NCBI GenBank assembly: GCA_001189215.1
Contig: LFCR01000002.1
Coordinates: 10,677-74,676, forward strand
Length of the DNA stretch: 64,000 bases
Direction of reading: 5' to 3'
Source: Parcubacteria bacterium C7867-008
GTDB lineage: Bacteria; Patescibacteriota; Minisyncoccia; Phycocordibacterales; Phycocordibacteraceae
Positions within the stretch are counted from its first letter, which is position 1, and the number at the start of each line of letters is the position of its first letter. Under the pieces are notes generated by a model. That model was not told where the DNA came from. It made no database searches and was given only the letters and a program-made list of their open reading frames with translations. The translations under genes were made by a program, and so were the position numbers. Below are positions 10,340 through 42,138 of this stretch, one piece after another.

Positions 10340-10957
10340 TTATGCAGAGATGATCTCTACGAGGGAGCCACGTGCTCCGGGGATAGCGCCAGAGATGATG
10401 ATCTCACCCTTAGCAGCATCCACGTGAAGCACCTTAAGGCTTGGCACCGTGACGCGATCACCACCCATGCGTCCACCCATGCGCATACCCTTAGCTACAC
10501 GACCGCCAGCGCGACCACCGCCACCGATAGAACCTACTTCACGCTCAGAGTGCTTCTGACCGTGTGAACGACGACCTCCCTTGAAGCCGTAGCGCTGCAC
10601 ACCGCCTGCAAATCCCTTACCCTTGCTGGTTCCAGCGATGGTAACTCCATCCCCTACAGCGAATGAATCGAGAGTAATCTCACTACCAACCGTGAAGTCT
10701 GCAGGATTCTCAACACGGAACTCTTTGATAACCTTGAACGCCTTTCCCTTGGTGTGGCCAAGTACTGCTTTAGAAACGCGGCTTTCCTTCTGATCGTCGA
10801 ACGCAACCTGGATGGCATTGTATCCATCAGCACCATCCGCAGTCTTAACCTGCGTAACGGTAAGTGGGGTCGTCTTGAGGACGGTACCAGCCTTAACATC
10901 CCCATTCTCCTGGAAGATTTGGGTCATGCGCTCTTTGCGTGCGAGAAGGAATTTCAT
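10340..10957 (-). CDS. rplC: 50S ribosomal protein L3
   Basis: ...FKGGRRSHGQKHSEREVGSIGGGGRAGGRVAKGMRMGGRMGGDRVTV... Confidence 0.95.
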   Translation of the reverse strand: MKFLLARKERMTQIFQENGDVKAGTVLKTTPLTVTQVKTADGADGYNAIQVAFDDQKESRVSKAVLGHTKGKAFKVIKEFRVENPADFTVGSEITLDSFAVGDGVTIAGTSKGKGFAGGVQRYGFKGGRRSHGQKHSEREVGSIGGGGRAGGRVAKGMRMGGRMGGDRVTVPSLKVLHVDAAKGEIIISGAIPGARGSLVEIISA

Positions 10958-11140
10958 GTAAAAAGTGAAAACGCGCCCTATTGAAAGTGTCTGTGGGAAT
11001 TCGGGGCGATCCGTTCACCTGGATCTTCCCTGTGCCTGACGGGGCCAGCAACGATCCCTTCAATGGCGCCCTGCCAGATGGAGGCGAGATCAAGCCCGTT
11101 CTCTGCTAGACGATGAGTCTGGCACCTGACACGCAAATAC

Positions 11141-11180
11141 GGTCCCGGTAGCGCAAGCTGCCGGGACTTTGCTTTATATA
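11141..11180 (+). terminator. 12-bp hairpin capped by a GCAA (GNRA) tetraloop followed by UUUGCUUUAUAU on the plus strand; terminator-like element in the rpsJ-rplC spacer
   Basis: GGTCCCGGTAGC-GCAA-GCTGCCGGGACT then TTTGCTTTATATAAA; no plus-strand CDS upstream. Confidence 0.4.
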
Positions 11181-11373
11181 AACAGATAGACCACCCCCAA
11201 GGGAGTAGTCCATACGGCAGCTTATTAATTGACTCGAGTCCCCCAAGGAGAACAGGTCAAAATGATGAGATTTAATCTCCGAAGCTACTCCAGCACTATA
11301 CATAGGAGGCACTAAAGAATGCATGAAGAGAGGTCGGTCCCGCAGGTCCGACCTCTTCTCACAGTAAGAAACA

Positions 11374-11751
11374 TCAGCCTCTGGGAATTTCAAGCGCAGC
11401 CGTCTTGATGAACGCGTCGCTGACCGCAAATAGACCACCACCTAGATCATAGATAAAGAATTCCCCTTCTCCTGAGCTGAATCCTTCTCTGAGAAACAGG
11501 AGCCCATCGAACATGGTTTCCGGAACCCAGTCCTGGAACAGGTAATATCCAATGAGCTGATCTTTGGTGAAAGAAACCCAGTAGTTGAGGTACTGGAAGA
11601 ACTTCACCAAACGCCCCGCTGAGAGTCGCGCGGTTTCACTACCCACCTGACCACATAAGGAACCGTCTGGACGTGTCCTGATGACAGCGGGACGGATTGG
11701 GAACGTTGCCTTTGCAGGCTCTTCACATACGATGCATATTGGGCTATTCAT
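11374..11751 (-). CDS. hypothetical 125-aa protein (C-terminal FIYDLGGGLFAVSD motif)
   Basis: ORF in the rpsJ-rplC spacer, same strand as the operon; motif loosely resembles SMI1/KNR4 (SUKH) GGG motif. Confidence 0.3.
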   Translation of the reverse strand: MNSPICIVCEEPAKATFPIRPAVIRTRPDGSLCGQVGSETARLSAGRLVKFFQYLNYWVSFTKDQLIGYYLFQDWVPETMFDGLLFLREGFSSGEGEFFIYDLGGGLFAVSDAFIKTAALEIPRG

Positions 11752-11848
11752 TCAAGTACCTTTCCAAAACAATCTATTTGGAACGTATCACGGGGCGAGA
11801 AAAAGAAAAGTGCGCCCATTGCTGGGTGCACTCATTCATGCGGACACA

Positions 11849-12118
11849 CTACAAGTACCCGCTCGCTTGCTGTGTGCTCATCTTCAGACGTCGTGCTAGC
11901 CCATAGTGCTGCCACTCAAGCCTGCGTAGCCATCCCGTTACTTGATCTTCGCCATTCATGCGGTCTTCGAATCCACCAAGACACGTCGGTCGATAGTCGC
12001 GCACAGCAGCAAGCTGAGCTCTTACTTCTACAATACTGCGATTAACTCTACGAAGGCTTGAGATGAGCTTGCGCCGCTTAAGTGCTCTGCGGAATCGTAA
12101 CCATCGTCTTATAGACAT
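11849..12118 (-). CDS. hypothetical small basic protein (89 aa, MSIRRWLRFRRALKRRK...)
   Basis: AGGAAA Shine-Dalgarno 8 nt before ATG 12118; lies directly after the rpsJ terminator. Confidence 0.4.
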   Translation of the reverse strand: MSIRRWLRFRRALKRRKLISSLRRVNRSIVEVRAQLAAVRDYRPTCLGGFEDRMNGEDQVTGWLRRLEWQHYGLARRLKMSTQQASGYL

Positions 12119-12164
12119 GTTGGGTTTCCTTTCTGGAAGAACCATATCAGGTATGACAAAAAGA

Positions 12165-12193
12165 AAAAGCTCGGCGGTATGCCGAGCTTTTTC
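12165..12193. terminator. bidirectional intrinsic terminator directly after rpsJ (aaaaagctcggc/gccgagcttttt, loop ggtat)
   Basis: perfect 12-bp A/T-flanked palindrome 20 nt past the rpsJ stop. Confidence 0.65.
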
Positions 12194-12211
12194 TTTAGTC
12201 TGTTCTTTCGA

Positions 12212-12565
12212 TTAGACCATCTTCACGTCGATGGTAACACCAGACGGAAGGTTGAGGTTCGTAAGCGCTTCGATGACCTTCGCGTTTGGCGAGAGGATAT
12301 CGATGAGACGCTTATGAATGCGCATCTCGAACTGCTCGCGTGCATCTTTGTGGACGAACGTAGAGCGGTTAACGGTCCAGCGCTTGATCTCAGTTGGAAG
12401 CGGTACCGGGCCCACAATCTTCGCATCGAAGCGATTTGCGGTATCCATGATCTGCTTCACCGAGAGGTCGAGGATCTTATGCTCGTACGCACGCACGCGG
12501 ATGCGAAGCTTTGGCTCAGCACCAGGTGCTGCCTCGGTCTTCTTTGCTTTGGTAGCGGTAGCCAT
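12212..12565 (-). CDS. rpsJ: 30S ribosomal protein S10 with N-terminal Ala/Lys-rich extension
   Basis: ...LRIRVRAYEHKILDLSVKQIMDTA...PNAKVIEALTNLNLPSGVTIDVKMV. Confidence 0.9.
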   Translation of the reverse strand: MATATKAKKTEAAPGAEPKLRIRVRAYEHKILDLSVKQIMDTANRFDAKIVGPVPLPTEIKRWTVNRSTFVHKDAREQFEMRIHKRLIDILSPNAKVIEALTNLNLPSGVTIDVKMV

Positions 12566-12588: not shown

Positions 12589-13791
<1,203 letters not shown>

Positions 13792-14016
13792 AGAATTTGT
13801 AAGTTACTGGTAGGTAAAAATAATTTGCCGCCGCGCCTGCCTGCGCCTTACAAAAGGCAGACAGGCGACCAAGGCTCCGGCGATACCCGCGCAGCGCCTT
13901 CCAGCCACCCCTGCCCCGTTATGGAGAGGAATATCGAAAAGAGCGCCGATCTCGCGTTATGTATAAAGTACCGGAGGCAGAATTAAAGGTCAAGCAATGA
14001 GCTCCTTGCCCGGTTC

Positions 14017-16326
14017 TTAAGTATGGTTGAATAGGCTCAAAAGCCACGTAAACGGAAAGAGGAGATAGTGAATCAGCTGACTGAAGAATTCTCCCGCGCC
14101 TGAAGCAAATACCGCCGCAAGACGCGTCTCCTTAGGCTGGGGTGCGAATGCTGAAGGTCGCGTTCCGCCACCCACACCTGCACCAGTCCCAGTTAGAACG
14201 GATCCCGACTTGGCTGAGAAATCGTATGAATTGCCGGATGGATCGAAGCTGGCATAGGCCGCAACGTTATCCGGTACCACAATGTCGTTTACTTCCGGGG
14301 TTGAACCTTCATTGATAAATCCTCGTGCGGAATTGTTGGACATCACTACGTTAGAAGGGATTGGGTCAGATGCCGTCCTTCGCTTGACCGCTATCCATGT
14401 CGCTCTTCCATTGTCGGTATAGTTTACCGCCGTATTGTGGTCTATAACGCTATCTTTTACGTTGTACCAAGAGAGACCGTGCCACACCGACGTTATGACC
14501 ACATTATTACTTATCGTAAAGTTTATCAGTGGGCCATCAAATGATGCGATTCCCTGCATGCCACCTATAAGCGGCCGATTTGGATCAGTAGTCTCCTGCA
14601 CCCAGTTGTGGTCGATTACCACGTTACTAAATACGGCTCCATTCGTGAATACTTGGATACCATCGTCATGATTAGGATCACCCTGTGACTGATCCACATA
14701 CTCATCAAGGATGGTGTTATTGGAGACAATCATATCAGAACCATTCGGCACGATTCCATCTGCTGAGAAATTCTGAATGACGTTGTCCTTGATTATTCCT
14801 TTTACACTGTTCGCAGGTGCTGTGCCTCCACTGACGCCCGTATTCATGCCGATGCCGCCACGAACATTCTTTATGTGGTTGCGAAGTATAGATAGACACG
14901 GCCCTCCCTTAAGAGTCACGCCGCTTCTTGTACCATTCATCCATTTGTCTACACTCCAACCGGAACTGTTTTTCGCTGTATAGAAATTACCATCTGCGAT
15001 TATGATGTTTGAAACATTGCCACCATAAACCATCACGCCACTTGGAGTAGCTATTGAAGTCATCTCAGGCTTCGTTACAATCCATTTCTTTGCATCATAA
15101 AACTCTAAGCCATCCATGATCGCACCGCTCTCGAACTCTATCCAGAACCATGCGGTCGGATTGTTATATGGTGCTACATTCGCGCTAATCTTCGCTTTTG
15201 GATGATTGCCTGACATAAGCACAATATGATCTCCGGGTTTAACTACTCGTGCTGCCATCATTGCATTCAGCGTTTTGAAAGGACGCACTCTTGTTCCATC
15301 CCCGGTATCTAGTCCAACCACTGGATCAACATAAAGGGTACGTAGATAATTCCTGTCTGGCGCTTCGCATCCTGAATACACTTGGTATGAACCTGAGAGT
15401 GTGGATGGGGCAGGAGGAGGGGTTGGAGTTGGTACCGGCGTTGGGGTAGGGGTAGGGGTTGGCGTGGGAGTTGGTGTCGGTACAGGTGTAGGAGTGGGTG
15501 TAGGAGTTGGGGTCGGAGTAGGGCTTGGAGCAGGGGTAGGCGCCGGAGTGGGAGTTGATGTAGGAGTGGGAGTACCAACACGGGTAGTAATTTCTACTGT
15601 CTTACTAGTACTCCCTCCTGTGCCCTTACACGTAATACCGTAGACTGTATTTTTGCTTATAGATATATCTGCAGAACCATTTGTTTTGTATCCAGCATCA
15701 AAGCCTGCCCCCACACATGACGTTGCTCTATCAGTCTTCCAAGAAAGAGTTACGGTTGATCCAACCAGCACATTTGTTTGATTTGCAGTAAAGGTAACTG
15801 TGGGTCCAGAAGAAGTGGTGGGTGTTTGAGAAGTAGCTACCGGTGTGACAGTTGGAGTTTCAGTTGGCTTTGTACTTCCAGAACCCTTGGGTGCGCTTGG
15901 AGTTGCTATAGCGACTGGTTCCTCTTTCACTACTGGGCTAATGCCAGATACTGGAATGAGCGAAGGCACATCCCGCAGCAGTTCATATTCTTTTAGCGTA
16001 TCTGTAACAGCTACTGGTTCACCTTTTATTGCTGGTACCGCAATACGCGTTACAAGACCATACGCACCTGGAGCAGATATGAGTAATACGAGTATAAGAA
16101 ATATTTGAAAGAATGATCCCTTCGAATTAGTTTTGCTGGGCACAAAAGATTGATGTATACCCGATGGCACTGCGAATGAAGATTTCTGCAACGCAATAAT
16201 TGCAAGCGCACCATGTATATCTTCCGCGGAATACCCTTTTGCAGTGAAGTCCTTCAGCATCTTCTCTTCACTTTCTCCAAGTTGGTGTCTATTGGATAGA
16301 AGTGCCAGAAGTTCTTTGTCTGCCAT
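14017..16326 (-). CDS. membrane-anchored surface protein: cytoplasmic N-terminus, one TM helix, Pro/Thr-rich linker, right-handed parallel beta-helix (pectate-lyase-like) domain
   Basis: [23 protein letters not shown]; (TP)n linker; repeated beta-helix rungs [61 protein letters not shown]; ORF track start 16344 is GTG, first ATG at 16326. Confidence 0.65.
15400..15560. repeat. tandem low-complexity repeat encoding the (Thr-Pro)n linker of the surface protein
   Basis: repeated GTTGG/GTAGG hexamer-like units; reverse strand gives a spurious [12 protein letters not shown]. Confidence 0.7.
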
Positions 16327-16701
16327 ATATTGAAATAGTAGCACTAGGTAGCAAGAAAGAAGGGCGGCCCTTTGGGGGCCGCCGCGAGCACTATCTATTG
16401 CTCGTCGTGTGTATCAGGAACCGCGCCTGCCCATTCCGCGCTGTTGCGCGAGATGATCAGGACCATAGCTGCTGCTCCGTGCGTGACCAACATTGTGGCC
16501 CCAGATCGTTGCGCCGCCTTGCACTTCACCCTGCTGCTGCTGCTGCGGGCCGAGTGTTTCGAAATGCTGCGGCTGTTGCGGTGACCTCACCGCACGAGCG
16601 TCAGGTTGGATGTCCGCCATGGCAGTTCTCCCTATGACCTGCACTAACCATAGCACTGTACTTCTCTATTCTTTGCTGAAAAATTCGAAAGGGGGATATC
16701 T

Positions 16702-17169
16702 CTAGCAGTGAATATTACTAAGCGCTGTGTTAGTGGTTGTTGCACTTCCGTCAAAATCAACACAGAAGTATCCTCCACGCTGGAGCGGAATCGATGCAGC
16801 CCACACGCCAGGGCTTGGAATCTTTTGATAAACCGTTATTACCCCTGGTGCATCAACCTTTTTGTATAGTGACCCGCTTGGATAACAGGATGCTGAGACT
16901 GAATTTACTGCGTTCAATCCAACAGCCCGGTCGAACATGGCACCAGGTGTCGAGGTGGAGTCACACACAGAGTAGTAATCACCGTTTGTTTCGAAATAGA
17001 TCTGTGCAGCTGTTCGCATTTCAGATAGTTGCTGCTTTATTGCTCCATCAGCAGCCCTTTCACGCGCCTTACCAAGCGCAGACATGACGATAGAAGCCAA
17101 TGTCCCAAGTATGGCGATCACCACAAGGAGCTCAATGAGAGTGAATCCGAGCGAGGCACGTCTGCTCAT
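16702..17169 (-). CDS. type IV pilin (major pilin-like, class III prepilin signal)
   Basis: MSRRASLG/FTLIELLVVIAILG prepilin cleavage/methylation motif with Glu at +5; 155 aa, C-terminal Cys pair. Confidence 0.85.
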   Translation of the reverse strand: MSRRASLGFTLIELLVVIAILGTLASIVMSALGKARERAADGAIKQQLSEMRTAAQIYFETNGDYYSVCDSTSTPGAMFDRAVGLNAVNSVSASCYPSGSLYKKVDAPGVITVYQKIPSPGVWAASIPLQRGGYFCVDFDGSATTTNTALSNIHC

Positions 17170-17201
17170 ATACGAGAAATTGTACCACTGCGTATAAATC
17201 T

Positions 17202-17248
17202 AAAGAGAAAGGCCACTGTAGTAGTGGCCTTTCTCTTTAGATTTATTT
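17202..17248. terminator. strong bidirectional intrinsic terminator between fusA and the pilin gene (16-bp perfect stem aaagagaaaggccact/agtggcctttctcttt)
   Basis: perfect inverted repeat with 5-nt loop, T-runs on both sides. Confidence 0.75.
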
Positions 17249-17254
17249 TATCTC

Positions 17255-19402
17255 TTACTTACGAGCTGCAATGATTTCCTGAGCAACGTTGCTTGGAACG
17301 ATCTCATAGTGATCGAATTCCATAGTCATAGATCCACGACCTTCTGTCATAGAGCGAAGAGTTGTGGTGTATCCGAACATTTCAGAGAGCGGTACCTTAG
17401 CGTTAACCACCTTATTCATGCCACGATCTTCCATACCTTCGATAGCACCACGCTTTCCTGAAAGGTTCCCGGTGATATCACCCATGAACTGTTCAGGGAC
17501 CACCACCTCAACACGCATGATCGGTTCGAGGATAACGGGCTTAGCTTTAAGTGCTGCCTCCTGGAATGCCTGAGATGCTGCGATCTTGAAAGCGATTTCA
17601 GAAGAGTCCACATCGTGATACGAACCGTCGTAGAGATCTACCGATACGTCTACGATTGGGTACCCAGCGAGAATACCGCGATGGAGTGATTCACGAATAC
17701 CCTTCTCAACAGCAGGGATGTATTCCTGAGGAATAACACCTCCCTTAATGTTGTTGATGAATTCGAAGTGGTCCTCGCGCTTAACGTTCTTGAGTTCTTT
17801 AGCATCTGGATCAAGTGGTTCAAGGTGCTTGAGCTTGATCTTAACGTGTCCGTATTGACCCTTACCTCCTGTCTGCTTGATGTACTTGTTGTCTACATCG
17901 GCAGTACCCGTGATAGTTTCGCGGTATGCCACCTGCGGCTTACCAACGTTTGCGCCAACATTGAATTCACGTTGCATACGGTCCACAAGAATCTCGAGGT
18001 GCAGCTCACCCATACCTGCGATGATAGTCTCTGATGTTTCTTCATCAGATGTGATCTTGAAGGTTGGGTCTTCATCCGAAAGCTTCTTGAGTGCCATACC
18101 CATCTTTTCCTGGTCTGCCTTAGTCTTCGGCTCAATGCGAAGAGACACCACTGGTTCTGGGAATACAATCTGCTCAAGGATGATTGGATTCGCTTCATCA
18201 CAAAGGGTGTGTGAAGTCTTTGTATCCTTAAGACCTACGAATGCTGCAATCTCTCCGGTGAATACCTTTTCAACTTCCTCACGCTTATCTGCCTGAAGAC
18301 GAACGATACGTCCAATACGTTCCTTGCTACCCGTGTTTGCGTTGTAGATATAGGAACCAGCTGCAACGGTACCTGCGTACACACGGAAGAATGTAAGTGC
18401 TCCCACGAATGGGTCTGTCTGAAGCTTGAAAGCGAGCGCTGTGAATGGCTCTTCATCAGAAGGCTTACGCTGAATCTCTTCATCCGTCTTAGGATTAATA
18501 CCCTTTACTGGAGGAAGATCGAGTGGAGATGGAAGATAATCAACAACCGCATCGAGCACAAGCTGCACACCCTTGTTCTTAAGCGCAGAACCGGTGTATA
18601 CGGGGAAGATCTCGTTTGCAATCACTGCCTTACGGAGTGTTGCCTGCAGTTCAGCGTATGATGGTTCGTTGCCTTCGAGGTATGCCTGCATCTGTGCTTC
18701 GTCATTCTCAACAATGCGCTCTACAAACTCAGCATGATACTTCTCAGCTTCAGCTTTGTACTGCTCAGGAATTTCTCCTTCAATAACATCCTCACCCATG
18801 TTGCCTGTGAAGGTATATGCCTTCATGCCAAGCAGATCGATAACACCTTCGAAGTCTCCTTCTGCACCCATAGGGAGCTGTGCACGAACTGCCTTCTTTG
18901 AAAGACGATCAAGAATAGACTTGTATGAATCCTCGAATGATGCGCCAGTACGGTCGAGCTTGTTGATGAAACAAACACGAGGCACACCTGCTTCGTCTGC
19001 ATAGCGCCAGTTAGTTTCAGACTGTGGCTCTACACCAGCTACACCGTCGAATACGACGATCGCGCCGTCGAGCACACGCATGGAGCGCTTCACTTCTGCA
19101 GTAAAGTCGATGTGTCCTGGCGTGTCGATCACGTTGAAGCGGTACTTCTTAGCGATATCCTTCTTGTCCTTCTCATTGGTACGTGTCCAGAAACACGTAA
19201 TAGCAGCAGAGGTGATCGTGATACCACGTTCACGTTCCTGCTCCATCCAGTCGGTGGTGGTTCCACCATCGTGCACTTCACCAATCTTGTGCTGGGAACC
19301 AGTGTAGAAAAGCACACGCTCAGACGTAGTGGTTTTACCCGCGTCCACGTGGGCGACGATACCGAAGTTGCGCACTTTGTCGAGAGGATAATCGCGATTC
19401 AT
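17255..19402 (-). CDS. fusA: elongation factor G
   Basis: [26 protein letters not shown]...; 715 aa. Confidence 0.97.
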
Positions 19403-19424
19403 ATAATAAGTAGATAAATAAATG

Positions 19425-19440
19425 GAAAAGCCCGCCAGGG
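19425..19440 (-). promoter_or_regulatory. short GC hairpin plus U-tract (gcccuggcgggcuuuu) 25 nt upstream of the fusA ATG
   Basis: plus strand AAAAGCCCGCCAGGGC. Confidence 0.3.
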
Positions 19441-19465
19441 CGTTAGCTATAAGATACGTTTTTAG

Positions 19466-19514
19466 AGGTAAAAAGGCAAGAATCAGGGGCGCCGAGCAAG
19501 TTACTCGACGCCCC
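19466..19514 (-). terminator. GC-rich hairpin (ggggcgccgag/ctcgacgcccc, 10 of 11 bp paired) followed by a U-rich tract on the minus strand
   Basis: seen in sequence; follows the small GC-rich minus-strand ORF 19542-19727. Confidence 0.45.
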
Positions 19515-19541
19515 GTTGATTGATTAGCGATCAGGCCCTGT

Positions 19542-19727
19542 CTAAGGATTTGCCATCATTCTCAGACGGCGACTGATCTGACTTGCGGCGCTTGCTCGTG
19601 CAGCAAGGTCGCGGTCCCTCGCAAAGGCGCGATTCTCGGGACGAACTGACCTTCCAGCCTTTGCTCGAACTGCGCTTACCTCTTCAGGAGTTGGTCGTGT
19701 TCCACCTCTTTTTTGAGTTTCGCCCAT
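19542..19727 (-). CDS. doubtful small Arg-rich ORF (61 aa) in GC-rich patch
   Basis: only an ORF plus a downstream terminator; low-complexity translation. Confidence 0.2.
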
Positions 19728-19843
19728 GTACTACCCCACCAGTTAGTGTTGCCTGTAGTGAAAATACGATTTTAGTACTGTTTAGTCAAATTAGGTTACG
19801 CACAGGTTGCATCCATACAGCACGGTGCTACTCTCACTGAGGT

Positions 19844-20137
19844 TTGTACGGGGAAACAGTTATGACCGAAGTGACCACCGAACGCCGGCCTTCTTTCGCC
19901 GAATGCTTTCCTGGAATTACCATCACCAACTTGGACTTGATGGCCTTACCCGAAGGACTTCGTCCTGAACATCGGGGTAATTGGTTCGCAGACGGCCCCA
20001 AGGGGCAGCTCATCGTCGGGAGCGTCGTGAAGGGAGACGTTCTTTGTTGGACCACTTGCTGCAGGGACACCGGGAAGCACGATTGCATTAAACGGCTCGA
20101 AACTGAACTACTCAGTAATGGGTTCGTGAAGAAATAA
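19844..20137 (+). CDS. hypothetical 97-aa Cys-containing protein (alternative start 19862)
   Basis: ORF converging on the terminator at 20155-20180; no recognised family. Confidence 0.3.
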   Translation: MYGETVMTEVTTERRPSFAECFPGITITNLDLMALPEGLRPEHRGNWFADGPKGQLIVGSVVKGDVLCWTTCCRDTGKHDCIKRLETELLSNGFVKK

Positions 20138-20154
20138 GATTCTGAAGGAAAACG

Positions 20155-20180
20155 AAAGCGCGCCAATCCGGGCGCGCTTT
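20155..20180. terminator. intrinsic terminator (aaagcgcgcc/ggcgcgcttt) 25 nt downstream of rpsG, also closing the plus-strand ORF
   Basis: 10-bp GC stem, U-rich flank on the minus strand (cguuuucc). Confidence 0.55.
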
Positions 20181-20204
20181 AACGTTTCTATGTGATTGAG
20201 GAGA

Positions 20205-20654
20205 TTACCAAGCGAAGTGAGCGAATGCCTTGTTGGCGTCTGCCATGCGGTGCATGTCGTCCTTCTTCTTGATTGCTGCACCTTCGTTCTTTACATCAGC
20301 AAGTTTGTCTGCCATAGGCTTACCTTTCTTAGCGCGTGCTGCGTTGATGAGCCATCGGTATGCAAGAGATACACGGCGCTGCTGAGGTACCTCGCGTGGA
20401 ACCTGGTAGTTTGCACCACCGACACGACGTGAACGAACCTCCATGAGTGGTGATACGTTACGGATCGCAGTCTCAAATGTTTCGAGTGGATCAAGATCCT
20501 GTTCCTTGATCTTGTTAAGGGCTCCGTACACAACGGCACGAGCAGTATCCTTCTTACCGTCCCACATTACGGTGTTGATGAAGCGAGAGATTGCTTCAGA
20601 ACCGTACTCTTGGTCCGGGCGGCGAGGATGCTTATTTTTTAGGGGATGTCGCAT
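20205..20654 (-). CDS. rpsG: 30S ribosomal protein S7
   Basis: ...RFINTVMWDGKKDTARAVVYGAL...EVRSRRVGGANYQVP...HRMADANKAFAHFAW. Confidence 0.95.
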   Translation of the reverse strand: MRHPLKNKHPRRPDQEYGSEAISRFINTVMWDGKKDTARAVVYGALNKIKEQDLDPLETFETAIRNVSPLMEVRSRRVGGANYQVPREVPQQRRVSLAYRWLINAARAKKGKPMADKLADVKNEGAAIKKKDDMHRMADANKAFAHFAW

Positions 20655-20656: not shown

Positions 20657-20938
20657 TTAAAAATTAAAGAGCTCCTGAAGGTTGTGTCCTTCACCTGGAA
20701 TGTATGCAGTAACTTCCATACCGTTCGTGAGACGTACACGAGCGATCTTACGGATAGCAGAGTTTGGCTTGCGAGGGGTCTTTGTAGTCACCTTGGTGCA
20801 CACGCCACGCTTGAATGGAGCAGCGTAGAACGTAGGGCGGTTCTTCAGTGCATTGAAGCCACGACCAAGAGCCACCACCTTTGTTTTGCGGGTGACCGGC
20901 TTGCGAGACTTCTTTGTGAGCTGATTAAGCGTTGCCAT
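20657..20938 (-). CDS. rpsL: 30S ribosomal protein S12, apparently C-terminally truncated (93 aa; lacks the [24 protein letters not shown]... segment)
   Basis: matches S12 through ...[47 protein letters not shown] then LFNF-stop; S7 ATG follows 2 nt later; no continuation in other frames. Confidence 0.8.
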
Positions 20939-27348: not shown

Positions 27349-27945
27349 ATGACCTACATCGCACGAACATTTAACCTTCCAGAGCTTAAAGGACTTTCCA
27401 AGAAACAGATTGATATACACCTTGCTCTCTATGAGGGGTATGTAAAACACACGAATCTTATTACCGAGAAGATTGAGAAGCTCCGAGAAGAAGATGCTGA
27501 AGGTAACGCGTACCTTATGGCAGAACTACGTCGCCGTCTTGGATTTGAGTTTGATGGCATGCGTATGCACGAGTATTATTTCGAACAATTCGAAGGAGAT
27601 ATGACATCTCAGGATTCAAGTCATCCGCTTACGGAAGCAGTAACCGACCGCTACGGTTCATGGGAAAAGTTTATTGCACACATCAAGGAAGTGGCTGGCA
27701 CGCGTGGTATCGGTTGGACGGTCGTATATTACGATCCACGCGGTCGTGCAATCCACACGGTTTGGGTCAATGATCATGAAGTTGGTCAGCTTGCAGGACT
27801 CCCTATCTTACTTGCGCTTGATATGTGGGAGCACGCATACATGGTTGATTACGTTCCTGCAGATAAGAAATCATACGTAGAAGCATTTCTTGATAACGTA
27901 AACTGGTGCGTTCCAGAAGGTCGTTTCCTCGATGCAGTAACCTAA
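27349..27945 (+). CDS. Fe/Mn superoxide dismutase family protein
   Basis: C-terminal DMWEHAYMVDY...NVNW signature; N-terminal LPELKG...IH..Y..YV; start at MTYIARTFNLPELKG. Confidence 0.7.
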   Translation: MTYIARTFNLPELKGLSKKQIDIHLALYEGYVKHTNLITEKIEKLREEDAEGNAYLMAELRRRLGFEFDGMRMHEYYFEQFEGDMTSQDSSHPLTEAVTDRYGSWEKFIAHIKEVAGTRGIGWTVVYYDPRGRAIHTVWVNDHEVGQLAGLPILLALDMWEHAYMVDYVPADKKSYVEAFLDNVNWCVPEGRFLDAVT

Positions 27946-29471
27946 TACGCAGTTCCATAGAATCGCCCCGCACTCTCTGTGTGCGGGGCGATTTCTTTTT
28001 GCTTCCATACCCACCACCCTAAAATTCCATACGTAGGGATCAGTAACCACGCAGAGAATGCTGGAATGATGACGTTTGCAAATGGTACCGATGCACCAAT
28101 CTCAGCAATATGGATCACATACGTGAGTAGTAGATATGCGGGAACGCCAGCTATGAGTGCAATCAGGGGTGCATAGCTTGAGAACAGAAATGCGCACACT
28201 GCACTAAGTGCCGATGCAGCCATAGCAGCAGGCAGTACGGGCATAGCAAGAAGATTTGCCGGTATGGCAACGAATGAAAGATTACCACTCTGGTACAACA
28301 AGACCGGGAGTACTGCTGCTTGTGCTGCAAGTGTAGTGGCAACCATCTCGTGAAGGGTCGGGTTATGAATCCAATGAAGTCGATTGCCGATATGAGTCGA
28401 ACCGAGTATCAACCCAAGTGTTGCCATAAAAGAGAGTTGTAGGCCGGGATCAAATACCAGTAACGAAGGATTAACCAGAAGCATAAGTACGAGTGCAACA
28501 AAGAGCGAACGTAGTACGTCATACGTTCGAGCAGCACCACGAGCAAATAGTGCAATGAGTGCCATGATACCCGCACGCACGGCTGCCGTTCCTGCACCAG
28601 CGGCAAGTACAAAAAGTGCTATCACCAGAGCAGCAAGTATGAGCGCGGTCTTCTTAGGTAGTTTTCGTAAAACAACAAGAACACCTTCAGCAACAATCAT
28701 GACGTTGTATCCAGAGAGCACAACAATCTGAAGCATCCCGGTAATCGTAAACGCATCAAGGAGTTGTGCACCTAATCCCTGCTTCCCCCCTGCAAGGATC
28801 CCTATAGCAAGCGCACTCTCTGGTTCAGGAATCGATTGTCGTATCGCACGAACAAAACCATCTTTTACATATTCAAGACTACGGAGAAATACAAACCATG
28901 GGCGCGTATCACGACCAACAATCTCAACGTTTGCAGGAGACGCTAAACCAAACACACCGTCTTTCGCAAGAAATTGATCGTATCGAAACACTCTTCCTCC
29001 ATCACCATCAAAAGGTTCGGGTGATTTTATGGTTCCTGTTACACGAACACGATCTCCCACATGATAGGTGTCTCGCAAAGATGCGCTTGCAATGATGCGT
29101 GTTGATTCTCCACCCTGTTCGATTTCAACCGTTAGCCGGTTACTAGATTCTCGTGTGTCTGGAGGAACAACTATCACCCCTTCAACAACAGACTTAGTAC
29201 CAAGAAGTGACGCGAATGGATATGGAATGCGGGTGGGCACGTAGTGGGTACGAATAGTCCCAATGCCAAACGCAACCAACGCAACACATAGCACGAATAG
29301 ATATTGATGTTTAAGTTCTAAAGTTTTCCTGAAGGTGAATAGTTGTACTCCACAGAAAAATCCTAGGAGGAGAAATACTATTGAGACAGTAGTAGGTATC
29401 GAGTGCACTGATTCTAAAAAGATGCCAGACAAGAATCCACTTACTGCAGCATAAAAGTACGGTGCACCCAT
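27942..29471 (-). CDS. comEC: ComEC/Rec2 membrane channel part (DUF4131 plus competence domain), lacking the MBL domain
   Basis: about 10 TM helices, OB-like N-terminal region, competence-domain layout. Confidence 0.75.
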   Translation of the reverse strand: MGAPYFYAAVSGFLSGIFLESVHSIPTTVSIVFLLLGFFCGVQLFTFRKTLELKHQYLFVLCVALVAFGIGTIRTHYVPTRIPYPFASLLGTKSVVEGVIVVPPDTRESSNRLTVEIEQGGESTRIIASASLRDTYHVGDRVRVTGTIKSPEPFDGDGGRVFRYDQFLAKDGVFGLASPANVEIVGRDTRPWFVFLRSLEYVKDGFVRAIRQSIPEPESALAIGILAGGKQGLGAQLLDAFTITGMLQIVVLSGYNVMIVAEGVLVVLRKLPKKTALILAALVIALFVLAAGAGTAAVRAGIMALIALFARGAARTYDVLRSLFVALVLMLLVNPSLLVFDPGLQLSFMATLGLILGSTHIGNRLHWIHNPTLHEMVATTLAAQAAVLPVLLYQSGNLSFVAIPANLLAMPVLPAAMAASALSAVCAFLFSSYAPLIALIAGVPAYLLLTYVIHIAEIGASVPFANVIIPAFSAWLLIPTYGILGWWVWKQKEIAPHTESAGRFYGTAY

Positions 29472-29957: not shown

Positions 29958-31712
29958 TTACCCTATCGAAACGAGCCGCATACGCACCGGCTGACCACGG
30001 GTATAGGTGTCTCGTTCAAGAGTACCGAGTATGGTAGCTGGCTTCCCTGTTACTAAGCGCTCATGGTCCTTACCGAGCTCTCTTCGCGCAAAGAATGTTA
30101 TTGCTTCAATCTCCGTGCAATTGAATCCGTCATCGCGTGTAACACGAACGCGAAGATGTTCTTCCCCCTTTCCGAACCATGAAACCTGCGTAACCACACA
30201 ATCCTGTAACGCAAATACTGGTTTAGGATTCTCCATACCAAAGGGTGCAAGCTTCTCCGTTCGAATGAGTAGTGTAGAAAGTTCGTCAGCTGCAGTGATG
30301 GCATGATCTGCTAGTGAGACGCTATCTGTTAGAGATATCGGGGACAGTGTTGCATATGCGGTACATAGTCGCTCTTCAAACGTAAACACTGCATCATCCT
30401 TGAGTGTGAAACCACCTGACGCTGCATGACCTCCTGCCTCTACGAATATATCTTCTGCACGTGCCATAAGTTCCACAACAGACACTCCTTTACGTCCTGC
30501 ACGACAAGAACCCTTTGCGGTCGTGGAACCTTCACGACCCCAAAGAAAGACTGGTCGCTCATATTCCTCGGCTAGTGAGTTCGCTACCAAACCAAGGAGT
30601 CCTGGACGCCAGTCCGGATCACCCATAGCAATCACGGGAGGGAGCTCACCATTATTCTCTTCCTTCTTACGTTCAAGACGTTCACGTGCTGCTCGTGTAA
30701 CTGCCGCGCCTGATGCTTTACGACTTCTGTTCACTTTCTCAAGTCCTTTTGCGAGTTCGTCGGCACGTACTTCATCAGTGGTGGTAAATAATTCAAACGC
30801 ATCACGAGGATCTCCCATGCGTGATGCTGCATTCACTCGTGGAGCAATCATAAAACCAACATCGTCTTCTGTTATAAATCGTTGATTCACGCGAGCAACA
30901 GTGCAGAGTTTTTGTAACCCAATTCGTGGAGACTTGCGCATCACCAGTAGTCCATATTTTGCGATCACACGATTCTCTCCCGTAAGCGGAACCATATCTG
31001 CAATGGTTGAGAGTCCTGCCATATCAAGAAGCCATTTCTCCCATCCAACAGGAATGGCATCACGCCCTTTGAAACCGGTAGCCAGAACAGCACATACGAG
31101 TTTCCATGCGAGACCTCCTCCACAAAAATCACGATAGATATTTGTTTCTCCTTCTTGCTTAGGATCTATCACCGCATACGCAGGAGGAAGTTCTTCGGTA
31201 CCATCTTGGTTTCGTCGTGGAAGGTGATGGTCTGTGACAATAACATCAATACCGAGAGACTGCGCGAACGCAACGTGCTCAACATCAGCGATACCACAAT
31301 CCACCGTGATGATGAGTGTCGTACCCTCATCTTTAAGTTTCTGTATTCCAATCTGATTGAGACCAAATCCTTCGAGGTGTCGATGAGGAATATAGTTAGT
31401 AAAGTTTGCACCAGCCTTCTTAAAGAAGTCGTGCATGAGTGTACCCCCAGGTATACCGTCGCAATCATAATCACTCCACACCGTAATACGTTCCTGATTA
31501 TCAATTGCCTTAGCAATACGCGTTGCTGCACGAGACATATTGAGAATATGCATTGGGTCTCCAATATGTGCATCGTAGTTAGGAGAGAGAAATGCTTCAG
31601 CAGCTTCAGGTGTCTCTATACCACGTCTAGAAAGTAGCCCGGCAGTAAAGTCGTCATAGGCGCCAAGCGCATCTCGCACCGCACCCTCTAGGGACTTATG
31701 GAAAGATGGCAT
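29958..31712 (-). CDS. recJ: single-stranded-DNA-specific exonuclease RecJ
   Basis: DHH motifs (DYDCDGIPG, ITVDCGI, VTDHH), DHHA1 and C-terminal OB region. Confidence 0.9.
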   Translation of the reverse strand: MPSFHKSLEGAVRDALGAYDDFTAGLLSRRGIETPEAAEAFLSPNYDAHIGDPMHILNMSRAATRIAKAIDNQERITVWSDYDCDGIPGGTLMHDFFKKAGANFTNYIPHRHLEGFGLNQIGIQKLKDEGTTLIITVDCGIADVEHVAFAQSLGIDVIVTDHHLPRRNQDGTEELPPAYAVIDPKQEGETNIYRDFCGGGLAWKLVCAVLATGFKGRDAIPVGWEKWLLDMAGLSTIADMVPLTGENRVIAKYGLLVMRKSPRIGLQKLCTVARVNQRFITEDDVGFMIAPRVNAASRMGDPRDAFELFTTTDEVRADELAKGLEKVNRSRKASGAAVTRAARERLERKKEENNGELPPVIAMGDPDWRPGLLGLVANSLAEEYERPVFLWGREGSTTAKGSCRAGRKGVSVVELMARAEDIFVEAGGHAASGGFTLKDDAVFTFEERLCTAYATLSPISLTDSVSLADHAITAADELSTLLIRTEKLAPFGMENPKPVFALQDCVVTQVSWFGKGEEHLRVRVTRDDGFNCTEIEAITFFARRELGKDHERLVTGKPATILGTLERDTYTRGQPVRMRLVSIG

Positions 31713-31752
31713 CGTCTGCACAGTGTACCAAAACGCGGTATCATTCACGCAT

Positions 31753-32166
31753 ATGGAAGAAACTATTTTCATGAAAATTATTAAACGTGAGATTCCTGCG
31801 GAAATCGTCTATGAGGATGAACTCACTCTAGCGTTCCTTGATATTGCGCCAAATAACCCGGGCCACACACTTGTTGTTCCCAAGAAAGCCACACAGAACG
31901 TATTCGACGTGGACTCAGCAACGTGGGCAGCAGTGCTAGAAACAGTACGAAAGATTGCTCCAGCAGTGCGTGATGGCGCTGGTGCCACTGGCGTTAACAT
32001 CCAATCGAACCACGGCGTAGACGCAGGGCAAGAGGTGTTTCATCTACACATTCACATCATTCCTCGCTTCACGAAGAAAGAGTTTCAGTTCTGGCCAAAG
32101 ATTGAGTATGGTCCGGGCGAAGCATCAGCTGTGGCAGATAAGATTCGTGCCAACATCAGTACTTAG
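31753..32166 (+). CDS. HIT family (histidine triad) protein
   Basis: PNNPGHTLVVPK ... HLHIHIIPR. Confidence 0.85.
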   Translation: MEETIFMKIIKREIPAEIVYEDELTLAFLDIAPNNPGHTLVVPKKATQNVFDVDSATWAAVLETVRKIAPAVRDGAGATGVNIQSNHGVDAGQEVFHLHIHIIPRFTKKEFQFWPKIEYGPGEASAVADKIRANIST

Positions 32167-33550: not shown

Positions 33551-34264
33551 TTATTTCTTCAATTGTTTCGAGACATCTTCGAACCATAGTTCGTATCCTT
33601 CAGAAGAAGGGTGGAGCCCATCTGCTGCTAGGTATATTTTTGGGCTGGCACTAATAGTTTTTGTTGTTGGTAAAATACCAAAGTTTATATATTCACCAAT
33701 TCCAGCACGCGCTACTGCAGCAATAAACTCTCTGTGATGTTCATTATTCAAGTACGTGTGTATCCATCTGACCGGGGGAGGAAATAGCGTTGCACCACCC
33801 ACATCACCTGCTGAAATAATAATGACCTGTTCTGCTTGGGGAAGCTGCCTCAATGCAGCTTCAAGTTGTATCCCAGACTTCTTAGGATCATGGAATTGAA
33901 TGATGTCGTTCCCACCAATCTGAATAAGAATCAAATCGTAATGAGTCAGCTGTGCCTGCGCAATCTGTCCCGGAAGATCTGCGGTCAGTGCACCAGATTT
34001 TGCATTATTCTCTACATACGTCATGTCCGCATACGTACTGAGACGACCAGCGAGTGATTCCTCTGGGTGTGTAGCACCAACACCTACGGCCGTACTGTCA
34101 CCAAGAATAAGAAACGTTTTTGTGTGATCCTCTGAACGCAACTGGAATGATACTGCGTTATGAATAAGTTTCTTTGAAACTTGCACGGTCATATAAAAGT
34201 GCACTGCCCACGCAGCAACACTAATAACAATAAGTACCAGGAGTACAAGTAGGATGAGTTTCAT
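33551..34264 (-). CDS. SGNH/GDSL-family hydrolase, membrane anchored
   Basis: ILGDSTAVG ... GGNDI ... DGLHPS blocks. Confidence 0.8.
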   Translation of the reverse strand: MKLILLVLLVLIVISVAAWAVHFYMTVQVSKKLIHNAVSFQLRSEDHTKTFLILGDSTAVGVGATHPEESLAGRLSTYADMTYVENNAKSGALTADLPGQIAQAQLTHYDLILIQIGGNDIIQFHDPKKSGIQLEAALRQLPQAEQVIIISAGDVGGATLFPPPVRWIHTYLNNEHHREFIAAVARAGIGEYINFGILPTTKTISASPKIYLAADGLHPSSEGYELWFEDVSKQLKK

Positions 34265-34268
34265 CCGC

Positions 34269-35003: not shown

Positions 35004-35021
35004 AATCGTAGCATGCGACCT

Positions 35022-36488: not shown

Positions 36489-36489
36489 A

Positions 36490-38791: not shown

Positions 38792-38816
38792 CTATGATAC
38801 CGCGCCGACGCTTGAA

Positions 38817-39437: not shown

Positions 39438-39498
39438 ACCGGAAGCATAGCAGATAGAGTTCATGGCTTATACTTGCCCTATCAATAACTATATTTGT

Positions 39499-39849: not shown

Positions 39850-39853
39850 AAAA

Positions 39854-40645: not shown

Positions 40646-40682
40646 TATCTATTATCATACATAATAGGATAATGTCAAGTAC

Positions 40683-42075: not shown

Positions 42076-42087
42076 ACAACCACCAAC

Positions 42088-42130: not shown

Positions 42131-42138
42131 ATAGCGAA

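What the first reader, a model, noticed from the sequence alone, without database searches (positions are those of the whole stretch)
13792..17254. Type IV pilin and a 770-aa beta-helix surface protein inserted between fusA and tuf
fusA and tuf are normally adjacent in the str operon. Here fusA ends with a 16-bp perfect bidirectional terminator, followed by a classic G/FTLIE pilin gene and a membrane-anchored protein built from a (Thr-Pro)n stalk plus a pectate-lyase-like parallel beta-helix (possible polysaccharide-degrading or adhesive function). tuf therefore needs its own promoter in 13.8-14.0 kb. Placing highly expressed surface-appendage genes inside the translation superoperon is unusual.
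Basis: partly seen in the sequence, partly recalled or inferred. Interest (0 to 1): 0.55.

Follow-up and report, generated by a model that had tools for sequence, protein, structure and literature searches.

The report
Pilin and beta-helix genes between fusA and tuf
A groundwater Parcubacterium really does carry a type IV pilin gene and a membrane-anchored beta-helix surface-enzyme gene between the translation genes fusA and tuf, but most of its relatives also have extra genes at that spot, so the arrangement is ordinary for the group.

Summary
On the minus strand the order is fusA (17255-19402), a 24-bp perfect hairpin, a prepilin gene (16702-17169), a 357-bp spacer ending in a GC hairpin, a 769-aa gene (14017-16326) and tuf (12589-13791). 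The window comes from Parcubacteria bacterium C7867-008, from Hanford groundwater.

The 769-aa protein has a 3-helix N-domain, a membrane anchor, an Ig-like domain, a Thr-Pro linker and a right-handed beta-helix (AF2 pLDDT 90). Its nearest folds are PL9, GH136 and PL6 enzymes at 12-16% identity. No CAZy-type family can be assigned.

The junctions are not chimeric. The sister species C7867-007 is collinear across both, and a separate JGI assembly agrees.

The "unusual" reading does not hold for this clade. In 57 related Patescibacteria species the fusA|tuf gap has a median of 958 bp. Only 7 gaps are at most 300 bp and 28 exceed 1 kb, and their cargo is heterogeneous. By contrast, rpsL|rpsG and tuf|rpsJ are tight.

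fusA usually ends in a strong hairpin. tuf has its own TTGACC promoter and a roughly 167-nt leader that is 96% conserved. The pilin and beta-helix pair at this site is found only in C7867-007 and C7867-008. Elsewhere the beta-helix homologues sit in other neighbourhoods.

Verdict: ordinary accessory surface genes in a clade-wide permissive slot. Interest is low to moderate.

The parts
17255..19402 (-). fusA (EF-G, 715 aa), the upstream boundary of the slot
   Evidence: All EF-G Pfam domains match. 98% aa identity to sister C7867-007, dN/dS 0.016.
17194..17246 (.). 24-bp perfect inverted repeat with a 5-nt loop: palindromic intrinsic terminator of fusA, with an A-rich 5' flank and a U-rich 3' half
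   Evidence: Equivalent long hairpins follow fusA in 39 of 78 related loci.
17179..17187 (-). Putative extended -10 promoter of the pilin gene (TGGTACAAT), 9 nt before the ATG. Suggests a leaderless or near-leaderless mRNA (inferred).
   Evidence: Read from the sequence. TGCTACACT at the same place in the sister. The simple promoter scan did not flag it.
16702..17169 (-). Type IV-class prepilin (155 aa): leader MSRRASLG, mature FTLIE..., Glu5, 4 Cys, 38% Gly/Ala/Ser/Thr
   Evidence: PF07963 and TIGR02532 score above their cutoffs. Identical to AB203_03490 of C7867-008, with more than 2,000 homologues. Composition. dN 0.36 against the sister.
16345..16701 (-). Spacer not conserved in the sister, either a 3' UTR or junk. 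Contains the GC hairpin plus T-run at 16363-16383, a terminator for the pilin transcript.
   Evidence: The 68-aa ORF called by IMG has no counterpart in the sister.
16335..16343 (-). Putative extended -10 promoter of the beta-helix gene (TGCTACTAT), 8 nt before the ATG (inferred)
   Evidence: Read from the sequence. TGCTATTAT in the sister.
14017..16326 (-). 769-aa membrane-anchored beta-helix protein (whole gene)
   Evidence: Exact product on JGI contig 3300001199|J055_10004466. 81% identical to P0001, a 'putative glucanase' of C7867-007. dN/dS 0.12.
16183..16326 (-). N-terminal 3-helix bundle (aa 1-48), predicted cytoplasmic
   Evidence: AF2 pLDDT 74-87. Motif EDIxGALAI conserved. Module found in only 9 of 1.84 billion cluster representatives.
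16036..16125 (-). Single strong hydrophobic segment (aa 68-97), the membrane anchor
   Evidence: Kyte-Doolittle maximum 2.22. Conserved position.
15580..15801 (-). Ig-like beta-sandwich (aa 176-249)
   Evidence: AF2 pLDDT 81-94, all-beta.
15394..15576 (-). Thr/Pro-rich linker (aa 251-311), about 40% Pro and 31% Thr
   Evidence: 12-nt periodic repeat; disordered.
14167..15393 (-). Right-handed parallel beta-helix domain (aa 312-720). Conserved residues are R489, D523, D550, N552-H553-D554-D555, Q558, D597 and an Asn ladder.
   Evidence: AF2 pLDDT 89.9. Foldseek hits to PL9, GH136 and PL6. Conservation.
14029..14094 (-). C-terminal hydrophobic or amphipathic helix (aa 745-766)
   Evidence: Helix in both AF2 models at low confidence. 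Present in homologues P0001-P0005.
13792..13993 (-). tuf promoter (TTGACC at 13988-13993, 17-nt spacer, TACTTT at 13965-13970) and a roughly 167-nt GC-rich leader
   Evidence: 96% identical to the sister, while dS of flanking genes is 0.3-1.0. Also present in L053 and L010. Consensus fold with 5 compensatory pairs. No Rfam match.
12589..13791 (-). tuf (EF-Tu, 400 aa), the downstream boundary. Followed 23 bp later by rpsJ (12212-12565) and a 16-bp perfect hairpin at 12160-12196.
   Evidence: The tuf|rpsJ gap is tight across the clade, median 43 bp.

Best explanation
The 3.46 kb between fusA and tuf holds two self-contained accessory genes of a Parcubacterium (C7867-008).

1. A type IV-class pilin gene. 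Its product is probably a structural (major-type) subunit for the PilB/PilC machinery encoded 25 kb away in the same window.
2. A gene for a type-II-anchored surface protein. This protein holds a right-handed beta-helix carbohydrate-active domain away from the membrane on an Ig-like domain and a Thr-Pro stalk.

The genes sit there because, in this clade, fusA and tuf-rpsJ are separate transcription units. fusA ends in a strong palindromic terminator, and tuf starts from its own promoter with a conserved leader. The DNA between the two is a permissive slot that different lineages have filled with unrelated genes.

The pilin and beta-helix pair was placed there in the common ancestor of C7867-007 and C7867-008. 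The beta-helix gene lies in an RNR/SET/VanY neighbourhood in more distant relatives.

Shown: gene identities, the fold, collinearity with the sister species, the clade-wide variability of the junction, the terminators, and conservation of the tuf leader. Inferred: promoter use, leaderless transcripts, pilin assembly into a filament, and enzymatic activity on a polysaccharide (plausibly a host or own cell envelope).
For: Gene identities
- Pfam and NCBIfam hits identify the pilin.
- PilB and PilC lie at 42139-45132, with pseudopilin-like genes at 35022-38791.
- The AF2 models and Foldseek hits identify the beta-helix fold.
- Purifying selection acts on the beta-helix gene (dN/dS 0.12). The pilin diverges fast (dN 0.36, against 0.011 for fusA) while keeping all 4 Cys.

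Not an artefact
- The same order occurs in sister C7867-007, with blastn collinear across both junctions.
- The same order occurs in separate JGI contigs of both species.

Permissive slot
- Junction statistics in 80 related species: fusA|tuf median 958 bp, 28 of 57 above 1 kb, 13 of 57 above 3 kb. In contrast, rpsL|rpsG has a median of 30 bp and tuf|rpsJ 43 bp.
- Cargo is heterogeneous: 50 Pfam families in 87 ORFs.
- Cargo is not enriched in membrane proteins: 38% against 41%, p = 0.72.
- Hairpins after fusA are common across the clade.

Autonomy of tuf
- The tuf promoter and leader are 96% identical to the sister.
- The leader is present in L053 and L010, which have different gap content.

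Lineage specificity
- None of 80 genome loci and none of 41 metagenome loci places a beta-helix homologue beside fusA or tuf.
- Homologues P0002-P0005 and P0011 lie elsewhere.

Native composition
- GC is 0.47-0.49, against 0.475 for the window.
- There are no flanking repeats, integrase or tRNA.
Against: - No expression data exist. The promoters are read by eye; the simple scan did not flag them.
- No strong terminator follows the beta-helix gene, so read-through into tuf is possible.
- The prepilin peptidase PilD and a retraction ATPase were not found in the window.
- Whether this pilin is the major subunit is unknown, because the rest of the genome was not examined.
- The enzyme chemistry is unresolved. 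An acidic cluster, an invariant His and a mostly conserved Arg fit either a hydrolase or a Ca-dependent lyase.
- The 'permissive slot' idea rests on the distribution of gap sizes, not on a demonstrated mechanism.
- The relatives were sampled by fusA similarity (60-88%), one genome per species.
Confidence: 0.7

Rival explanations
1. Placement is adaptive. The surface genes were recruited into the translation gene cluster so that their expression is coupled to that of highly expressed, growth-rate-controlled genes, for example by read-through from fusA or into tuf.
For: - The arrangement is retained in two species despite dS of 0.3-1.0.
- No strong conserved terminator lies between the beta-helix gene and the tuf promoter.
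- Another relative (L008) has a pilin gene between rpsG and fusA.
Against: - A 24-bp perfect hairpin separates fusA from the pilin gene.
- Each inserted gene has its own conserved -10 element.
- The same slot carries unrelated cargo in other species, including purine and pyrimidine enzymes, toxin-antitoxin genes and APH.
- Pilins are absent from all other fusA|tuf gaps examined.
- Beta-helix homologues function from other loci.
Confidence: 0.1
2. The two genes form one functional host-interaction module. The pilus attaches the episymbiont to a partner cell, and the stalked beta-helix enzyme cuts the partner's surface polysaccharide, like a phage tailspike depolymerase. This reading is not exclusive of the best explanation.
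For: - The two genes are kept adjacent in both species.
- The fold resembles polysaccharide lyases and hydrolases as well as phage tailspikes.
- Type IV pili mediate host binding in cultivated Saccharibacteria (PMC9894109, PMC11623550).
- One homologue is fused to a GH10 xylanase.
Against: - Adjacency is seen only in this lineage.
- A prepilin-motif gene lies near a beta-helix relative on only two distinct contigs among L088-L131, and not adjacent to it.
- The two genes have separate promoters and a terminator between them.
- No substrate is known.
Confidence: 0.2
3. The 3.4-kb block is a recently acquired mobile or horizontally transferred island.
For: It is lineage-specific and lies in a variable site.
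Against: - There is no integrase, transposase, tRNA or flanking direct repeats.
- GC and GC3 are close to the rest of the window.
- The nearest homologues of both genes are from Parcubacteria and Paceibacteria.
Confidence: 0.05
4. The arrangement is an assembly chimera. Two closely related species co-occur in the same metagenome.
For: The same scaffold does carry a probable join artefact 3.4 kb away, at about 20670, where rpsL loses its 3' end exactly at the first base of the sister's contig.
Against: - Both junctions are spanned by continuous alignments to the sister genome.
- Both junctions are spanned by JGI contigs of each species.
- Both species have the same order, so swapping between them would not create it.
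Confidence: 0.02

Closest known systems
Type IV pilins of Patescibacteria (for example PilA1 and PilA2 and the 'orphan pilin' locus of Nanosynbacter lyticus TM7x, PMC11623550)
   Same: - Class III signal peptide, G|FTLIE, Glu5 and a hydrophobic N-terminal helix.
- Small size (147 aa mature) and 38% Gly/Ala/Ser/Thr, as in major pilins.
- Encoded away from the PilB/PilC machinery, as TM7x has pilin loci separate from the machinery.
   Different: - Only 35-42% identical to other Paceibacteria pilins, and 54% to the sister's.
- No experimental evidence that it is assembled or is the major subunit.
- It lies next to fusA.
PL9 pectate and rhamnogalacturonan lyases (Pel9A 1ru4; BT4170 5olq)
   Same: - Best Foldseek matches (E 2e-7, TM about 0.5).
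- Right-handed beta-helix with the N-cap motif.
- A cluster of conserved Asp on adjacent rungs. From memory, this is reminiscent of the PL9 Ca2+ site.
   Different: - 14-16% identity.
- Profile-sequence similarity is limited to the N-terminal cap.
- No conserved Lys base; only a mostly conserved Arg (R489 in the 769-aa numbering), present in 44 of 49.
- No Pfam lyase family hit in 49 members.
GH136 lacto-N-biosidases, PL6 alginate and chondroitin lyases, and AlgE mannuronan C5-epimerases
   Same: Same fold class, with comparable Foldseek scores (E 1e-6 to 1e-4). All act on polysaccharides along the helix groove.
   Different: Identity is 12-14%. No shared catalytic motifs could be verified, and domain contexts differ.
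GH28 polygalacturonases
   Same: Beta-helix fold. The motifs SADG and NHDDG on successive rungs loosely resemble the GH28 NTD and GDD motifs (recalled from memory; a lead only). JGI names some homologues 'polygalacturonase'.
   Different: No PF00295 hit in any of the 49 members. The GHG and RIK motifs were not identified. GH28 was not among the top structural matches.
Split str operon of reduced genomes (for example Rickettsia prowazekii, with fus and tuf separated and tuf joined to the S10 cluster; recalled from memory, Syvanen et al. 1996)
   Same: fusA and tuf are uncoupled, and tuf is tightly linked to rpsJ (median 43 bp in this clade).
   Different: Here the genes stay in the same order and neighbourhood, but variable cargo of 0.1 to more than 10 kb is wedged between them, differing from species to species.

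Membership tests
Type IV pilin / prepilin (class III signal peptide proteins) | N-terminal cleavage/methylation motif G|F(T/S)L(I/V)E with Glu at +5 | tested here: met
   MSRRASLG|FTLIE. PF07963 scores 30.3 bits (cutoff 21.2) and TIGR02532 28.4 (cutoff 16.3).
Type IV pilin / prepilin (class III signal peptide proteins) | About 20-25 hydrophobic residues forming the N-terminal helix, followed by a small globular domain with disulfide-forming Cys | tested here: inconclusive
   The hydrophobic segment at aa 3-35 has a KD maximum of 2.62. Four Cys (69, 95, 136, 155) are all conserved in the sister. The globular fold was not modelled.
Type IV pilin / prepilin (class III signal peptide proteins) | Cognate assembly machinery (PilB ATPase, PilC platform, PilD prepilin peptidase) in the genome | tested here: inconclusive
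   PilB (PF00437, 1e-125) and PilC (PF00482) are at 42139-45132. No Peptidase_A24 (PilD) was found among the ORFs scanned in this window. The rest of the genome was not available.
Type IV pilin / prepilin (class III signal peptide proteins) | Polymerises into a surface filament (major pilin) rather than acting as a pseudopilin or competence pilin | not testable with these tools
   NCBIfam hits to GspG, PilA and ComG models cover only the N-terminus and fall below their cutoffs. ComEC is present in the window.
Pectate-lyase-like right-handed parallel beta-helix fold | Stack of three-stranded coils forming a right-handed helix, with an Asn ladder | tested here: met
   AF2 pLDDT 89.9, with about 12 coils. 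40 PDB matches at E <= 1e-3, all beta-helix enzymes or tailspikes. Invariant Asn at regular spacing. PF13229 in 42 of 49 homologues.
GH28 polygalacturonase | Family signature (PF00295; NTD, DD, GHG and RIK motifs) | tested here: not met
   No PF00295 hit in the protein or in any of the 49 aligned family members at E <= 0.01.
Polysaccharide lyases PL1/PL6/PL9 | Ca2+ site of acidic residues plus an invariant Lys/Arg Bronsted base in the groove, with family-level sequence similarity | tested here: inconclusive
   A conserved acidic cluster is present (D523, D550, D554, D555, D597). The only widely conserved basic residue is R489, in 44 of 49. Sequence-profile similarity to PL6 and PL9 is confined to the N-cap. 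The geometry of the model could not be inspected.
Canonical str operon (rpsL-rpsG-fusA-tuf co-transcribed) | fusA and tuf adjacent, without an intervening terminator | tested here: not met
   3,463 bp and two genes intervene. A 24-bp hairpin follows fusA. The same holds in most relatives.
Mobile genetic element / genomic island | Integrase or transposase, flanking repeats, tRNA target, deviant composition | tested here: not met
   None found.

The most novel reading that the evidence does not exclude
In Paceibacteria and Parcubacteria the fusA|tuf boundary is a clade-wide 'open slot', the most variable junction of the rpsL-to-rplC stretch. Species-specific cargo accumulates there. The slot is tolerated because tuf-rpsJ is insulated by its own promoter and a conserved, structured leader RNA of about 167 nt that matches no Rfam family. 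That leader could be a new cis-regulatory element for EF-Tu and S10 expression. In C7867-007 and C7867-008 the slot holds a pilin together with a member of an uncharacterised beta-helix enzyme family (NHDDGIQ motif, with an N-terminal module that is very rare in public protein collections), which may act on a partner cell's envelope.
Probability: 0.3. Interest if true: 0.45.

Novelty: new member of a known kind. Interest (0 to 1): 0.27.

Why it matters
In itself it matters little. Both genes belong to known kinds and are already in GenBank, one as a 'hypothetical protein' and the sister's copy as a 'putative glucanase'. Split str operons are known from other reduced genomes.

Three by-products have some value.

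1. There is now a quantified picture of the rpsL-to-rplC region in Parcubacteria. It is broken into autonomous modules ([rpsL-rpsG] [fusA] [tuf-rpsJ] [rplC...]), with fusA|tuf the most variable junction. This matters for anyone using ribosomal-protein synteny for binning or for phylogeny of these genomes.
2. A strongly conserved leader upstream of tuf is a candidate regulatory RNA.
3. A small, clade-restricted family of stalked beta-helix enzymes could be tested for a role in the episymbiotic lifestyle.

Tried and rejected
- Sequence searches for the beta-helix protein gave only low-complexity or generic hits: Pfam, NCBIfam and PDB sequences for the protein itself, a PDB profile search that matched only the N-cap motif, and Pfam over all 49 aligned family members, which returned only PF13229 and PF05048.
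- Foldseek against viral structures gave only generic beta-helix matches.
- Rfam found only chance hairpin matches, both at gathering thresholds over the whole window and at E <= 1 over 10.9-20.3 kb.
- A repeat search found no flanking repeats that would mark a mobile element.
- The exact-product look-up failed with the 775-aa GTG start and succeeded with the ATG start.
- The first metagenome scan, with the single protein, found nothing. The alignment-based scan found 41 loci, none near fusA or tuf.
- I tested whether slot cargo is enriched in membrane or surface proteins. It is not: 38% against 41%, p = 0.72.
- I tested whether the N-terminal 3-helix-plus-TM module is a general Parcubacterial anchor. 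It is very rare: only 9 cluster representatives, mostly 600-760 aa like this family.
- nhmmer with the tuf-leader alignment found it only in the four closest species. I therefore did not build a covariance model.
- Literature searches found no paper on fusA/tuf synteny in Patescibacteria.
- I first suspected inteins or insertions in fusA in relatives with long 'matches'. These are most likely cross-hits of the EF-G GTPase domain to the downstream tuf.
Full report
**What is there**

All relevant genes lie on the minus strand, in this order:

| Feature | Coordinates | Note |
|---|---|---|
| rpsL | 20657-20938 | truncated, see "Seen in passing" |
| rpsG | 20205-20654 | |
| gap | | 802 bp |
| fusA | 17255-19402 | |
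| prepilin gene | 16702-17169 | |
| spacer | 16345-16701 | 357 bp |
| large ORF | 14017-16326/16344 | |
| gap | | 225 bp |
| tuf | 12589-13791 | |
| rpsJ | 12212-12565 | |
| gap | | 1,254 bp |
| rplC | 10340-10957 | |

fusA and tuf match every EF-G and EF-Tu Pfam domain.

The pilin reads MSRRASLG|FTLIELLVVIAILG.... It passes the curated cutoffs of PF07963 and TIGR02532. Its mature form is 147 aa, with 38% Gly/Ala/Ser/Thr and four Cys. A study of Saccharibacteria pilins (PMC11623550) gives 38-47% Gly/Ala/Ser/Thr as typical of major pilins.

The inverted repeat after fusA has 24 perfect base pairs and a 5-nt loop at 17194-17246, longer than the 16 bp reported.

**Source organism**

The pilin is identical to AB203_03490 of Parcubacteria bacterium C7867-008. 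This is a Hanford groundwater genome described by Nelson and Stegen 2015 (PMC4508563). That paper already lists a type IV pilus operon as part of the Parcubacterial core.

The window also carries PilB (43381-45132), PilC (42139-43353), several pseudopilin-like genes (35022-38791), ComEC and RecJ. No other gene in the window has a classical G|FTLIE motif. This pilin is therefore a candidate structural subunit encoded away from the machinery, much as TM7x has an 'orphan pilin' locus.

**The large protein**

The publicly called product starts at the ATG at 16326 and is 769 aa long.

The protein has no Pfam hit of its own. It has 48 homologues at E <= 1e-3, and 42 of the 49 aligned sequences match PF13229 Beta_helix. 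The closest homologue (87% over the C-terminal domain) is a 'putative glucanase' of C7867-007.

An AF2 model of aa 310-769, built on 49 sequences, is a confident right-handed beta-helix (pLDDT 89.9, pTM 0.87).

The full-length model and the hydropathy profile give this architecture:

- 3-helix bundle, aa 1-48
- hydrophobic anchor, aa 68-97
- disordered linker
- Ig-like sandwich, aa 176-249
- Thr-Pro linker, aa 251-311
- beta-helix, aa 312-720
- C-terminal hydrophobic helix, aa 745-766

Foldseek against the PDB puts PL9 rhamnogalacturonan and pectate lyases first (5olq, 1ru4). GH136 lacto-N-biosidases, PL6 alginate lyases and AlgE epimerases follow. All are at 12-16% identity with TM 0.4-0.5. 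Viral tailspike-like proteins score similarly.

A sequence profile reaches solved structures only through the N-terminal cap motif.

The conserved residues are an Asn ladder, D523, D550, N552-H553-D554-D555, Q558, D597 and a mostly conserved R489. This pattern fits a metal-assisted lyase or an acid-catalysed hydrolase. I cannot tell which. GH28 membership fails at the family-signature level.

The first 100 residues recur in only nine cluster representatives of 1.84 billion, mostly 600-760 aa proteins like this family. The gene is under purifying selection (dN/dS 0.12; the beta-helix domain is 90% identical to the sister's).

**Is the arrangement real?**

Yes.

- The sister species C7867-007 (GCA_001189195.1) has fusA, pilin, a 763-aa protein, tuf, rpsJ and rplC in the same order.
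- blastn between the two species is continuous across both junctions: window 19501-16995 and 16369-12188.
- JGI contigs of sample 3300001199, carrying each species' own sequence, also span the region.
- Only the pilin's globular half and the spacer behind it fail to align. This fits a fast-evolving surface protein: pilin dN is 0.36 against 0.011 for fusA.

**Is it unusual?**

It is not unusual in this clade. A fusA-based scan of one genome per species returned 80 Patescibacteria loci, with fusA 60-88% identical. Locating the neighbouring genes by tblastn gave these intergenic distances:

| Junction | Median gap | Distribution |
|---|---|---|
| rpsL\|rpsG | 30 bp | 62 of 63 at most 300 bp |
| rpsG\|fusA | 137 bp | 10 of 64 above 1 kb |
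| fusA\|tuf | 958 bp | 7 of 57 at most 300 bp; 28 of 57 above 1 kb; 13 of 57 above 3 kb |
| tuf\|rpsJ | 43 bp | 53 of 54 at most 300 bp |
| rpsJ\|rplC | 214 bp | 11 of 52 above 1 kb |

Ten further loci have no tuf within at least 3 kb downstream of fusA.

The window's 3,463-bp gap is therefore unremarkable. The 87 longer ORFs found in these gaps hit 50 different Pfam families, including PG_binding, HepT with a nucleotidyltransferase, APH, a subtilase, fn3, and purine and pyrimidine enzymes. They are no richer in membrane proteins than other genes of the same loci (38% against 41%, p = 0.72).

None of these gaps holds a pilin or a beta-helix homologue, apart from the window's own lineage.

Conversely, beta-helix homologues in other Parcubacteria lie in other neighbourhoods, often beside ribonucleotide reductase, SET-domain, VanY and MASE1 kinase genes. 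None of 41 metagenome loci carrying relatives has fusA or tuf nearby.

One relative (L008) has a 282-aa pilin between rpsG and fusA instead.

**Transcription layout (inferred)**

- Long perfect hairpins with A/T-rich flanks follow fusA in most of the closer relatives, whether or not cargo is present. Stems of at least 10 bp occur in 39 of 78 loci.
- In the window the hairpin is followed by TGGTACAAT 9 nt before the pilin ATG.
- A GC hairpin with a T-run at 16363-16383 is followed by TGCTACTAT 8 nt before the beta-helix ATG.
- Both -10 elements are kept in the sister, although the surrounding spacer is not. This suggests leaderless or near-leaderless mRNAs. I read these promoters by eye; the generic scan did not flag them.
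- Upstream of tuf, a TTGACC at 13988-13993 and the following 167 nt or so are 96% identical to the sister. Synonymous divergence of the flanking genes is 0.3-1.0.
- The same element precedes tuf in L053 and L010, whose gaps hold different DNA.
- Its consensus fold has 47 pairs, with 97% of cells paired and five compensatory pairs. Only 3 of 500 shuffles reach this. With only four sequences this is suggestive and no more.
- The leader matches no Rfam family.

The insertion therefore lies between a terminator and an autonomous tuf-rpsJ unit.

**Conclusion**

The inference that surface genes have been placed inside a translation operon is not.

The best reading is that these are two ordinary accessory surface genes: a pilin and a stalked beta-helix glycan-active protein. 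They lodged in a junction that is a permissive, frequently refilled slot in this clade, and they have been kept since the common ancestor of C7867-007 and C7867-008.

A functional pairing of pilus and depolymerase-like enzyme remains possible, but synteny elsewhere does not support it. No sign of a mobile element was found.

**Seen in passing**

- The scaffold's rpsL lacks its last 46 codons or so. The break coincides to the base with the first nucleotide of the sister's contig. This points to a contig-join artefact in a region where the two co-occurring species are nearly identical.
- The rpsJ|rplC gap contains about 860 bp that are absent from the sister.

Noticed in passing
window 20657-20938 (junction at about 20668-20670): rpsL encodes only 93 aa. 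Relative to L053, L010 and L008, about 150 bp (codons ~91-136 and the stop) are missing, and rpsG starts 3 bp after the premature stop. The break coincides exactly with the first base of the sister genome's contig LFCQ01000007.1. JGI contigs of both species also start inside rpsG. This is probably a contig-join artefact where the two co-occurring species are near-identical, not a real truncated S12.
   Followed up: partly
window 13792-13993 (minus strand): The tuf promoter (TTGACC at 13988-13993) and a roughly 167-nt GC-rich leader are 96% identical to sister C7867-007, although dS of neighbouring genes is 0.3-1.0. The element is also present in L053 and L010. Its consensus two-domain fold shows 5 compensatory pairs. 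There is no Rfam match and no internal ATG. It is a candidate cis-regulatory leader of a tuf-rpsJ unit.
   Followed up: partly
window 10958-12211: There is a second interruption of the ribosomal cluster, 1,254 bp between rpsJ and rplC. About 860 bp of it (11331-12188) are absent from the sister genome. It holds ORFs of 125 aa (11374-11751, called as a gene by IMG) and 98 aa (11849-12145), neither with a Pfam hit. It is bounded by a 16-bp perfect hairpin at 12160-12196 just after rpsJ and a hairpin at 11324-11361.
   Followed up: partly
window 19403-20204: The 802-bp rpsG|fusA gap has no convincing ORF and aligns to the sister only in patches. Terminator-like hairpins lie at 20155-20180 (after rpsG) and 19486-19514.
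   Followed up: no
window 33551-45132: This is a type IV pilus machinery cluster. It contains PilB (43381-45132), PilC (42139-43353) and pseudopilin-like proteins with degenerate prepilin N-termini (37076-38791, which has CarboxypepD_reg domains; 36490-37092, G|LSLVET; 35022-36488). ComEC (27942-29471) and RecJ (29958-31772) lie nearby. No PilD or PilT was recognised among the ORFs scanned.
   Followed up: partly
L008 9077-9925: A Kaiserbacteria relative (fusA 86% identical) carries a 282-aa prepilin (G|FTLIE plus a large C-terminal domain) between rpsG and fusA. Pilin genes therefore occur in other gaps of the same gene cluster in this clade.
   Followed up: partly
window 16345-16701: The spacer between the pilin and beta-helix genes is GC-richer, contains a (CAG)5 run, and holds a 68-aa ORF called by IMG. 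It has no similarity to the equivalent spacer of the sister genome, except for the terminator and promoter in the last 80 nt or so.
   Followed up: no
window 17179-17187 and 16335-16343: Both inserted genes have a TGnTAnnAT extended -10-like element ending 8-9 nt before the ATG and no Shine-Dalgarno sequence. This suggests leaderless mRNAs. Similar TGGTATAAT-like boxes directly follow the fusA hairpin in L012, L013 and L015.
   Followed up: partly
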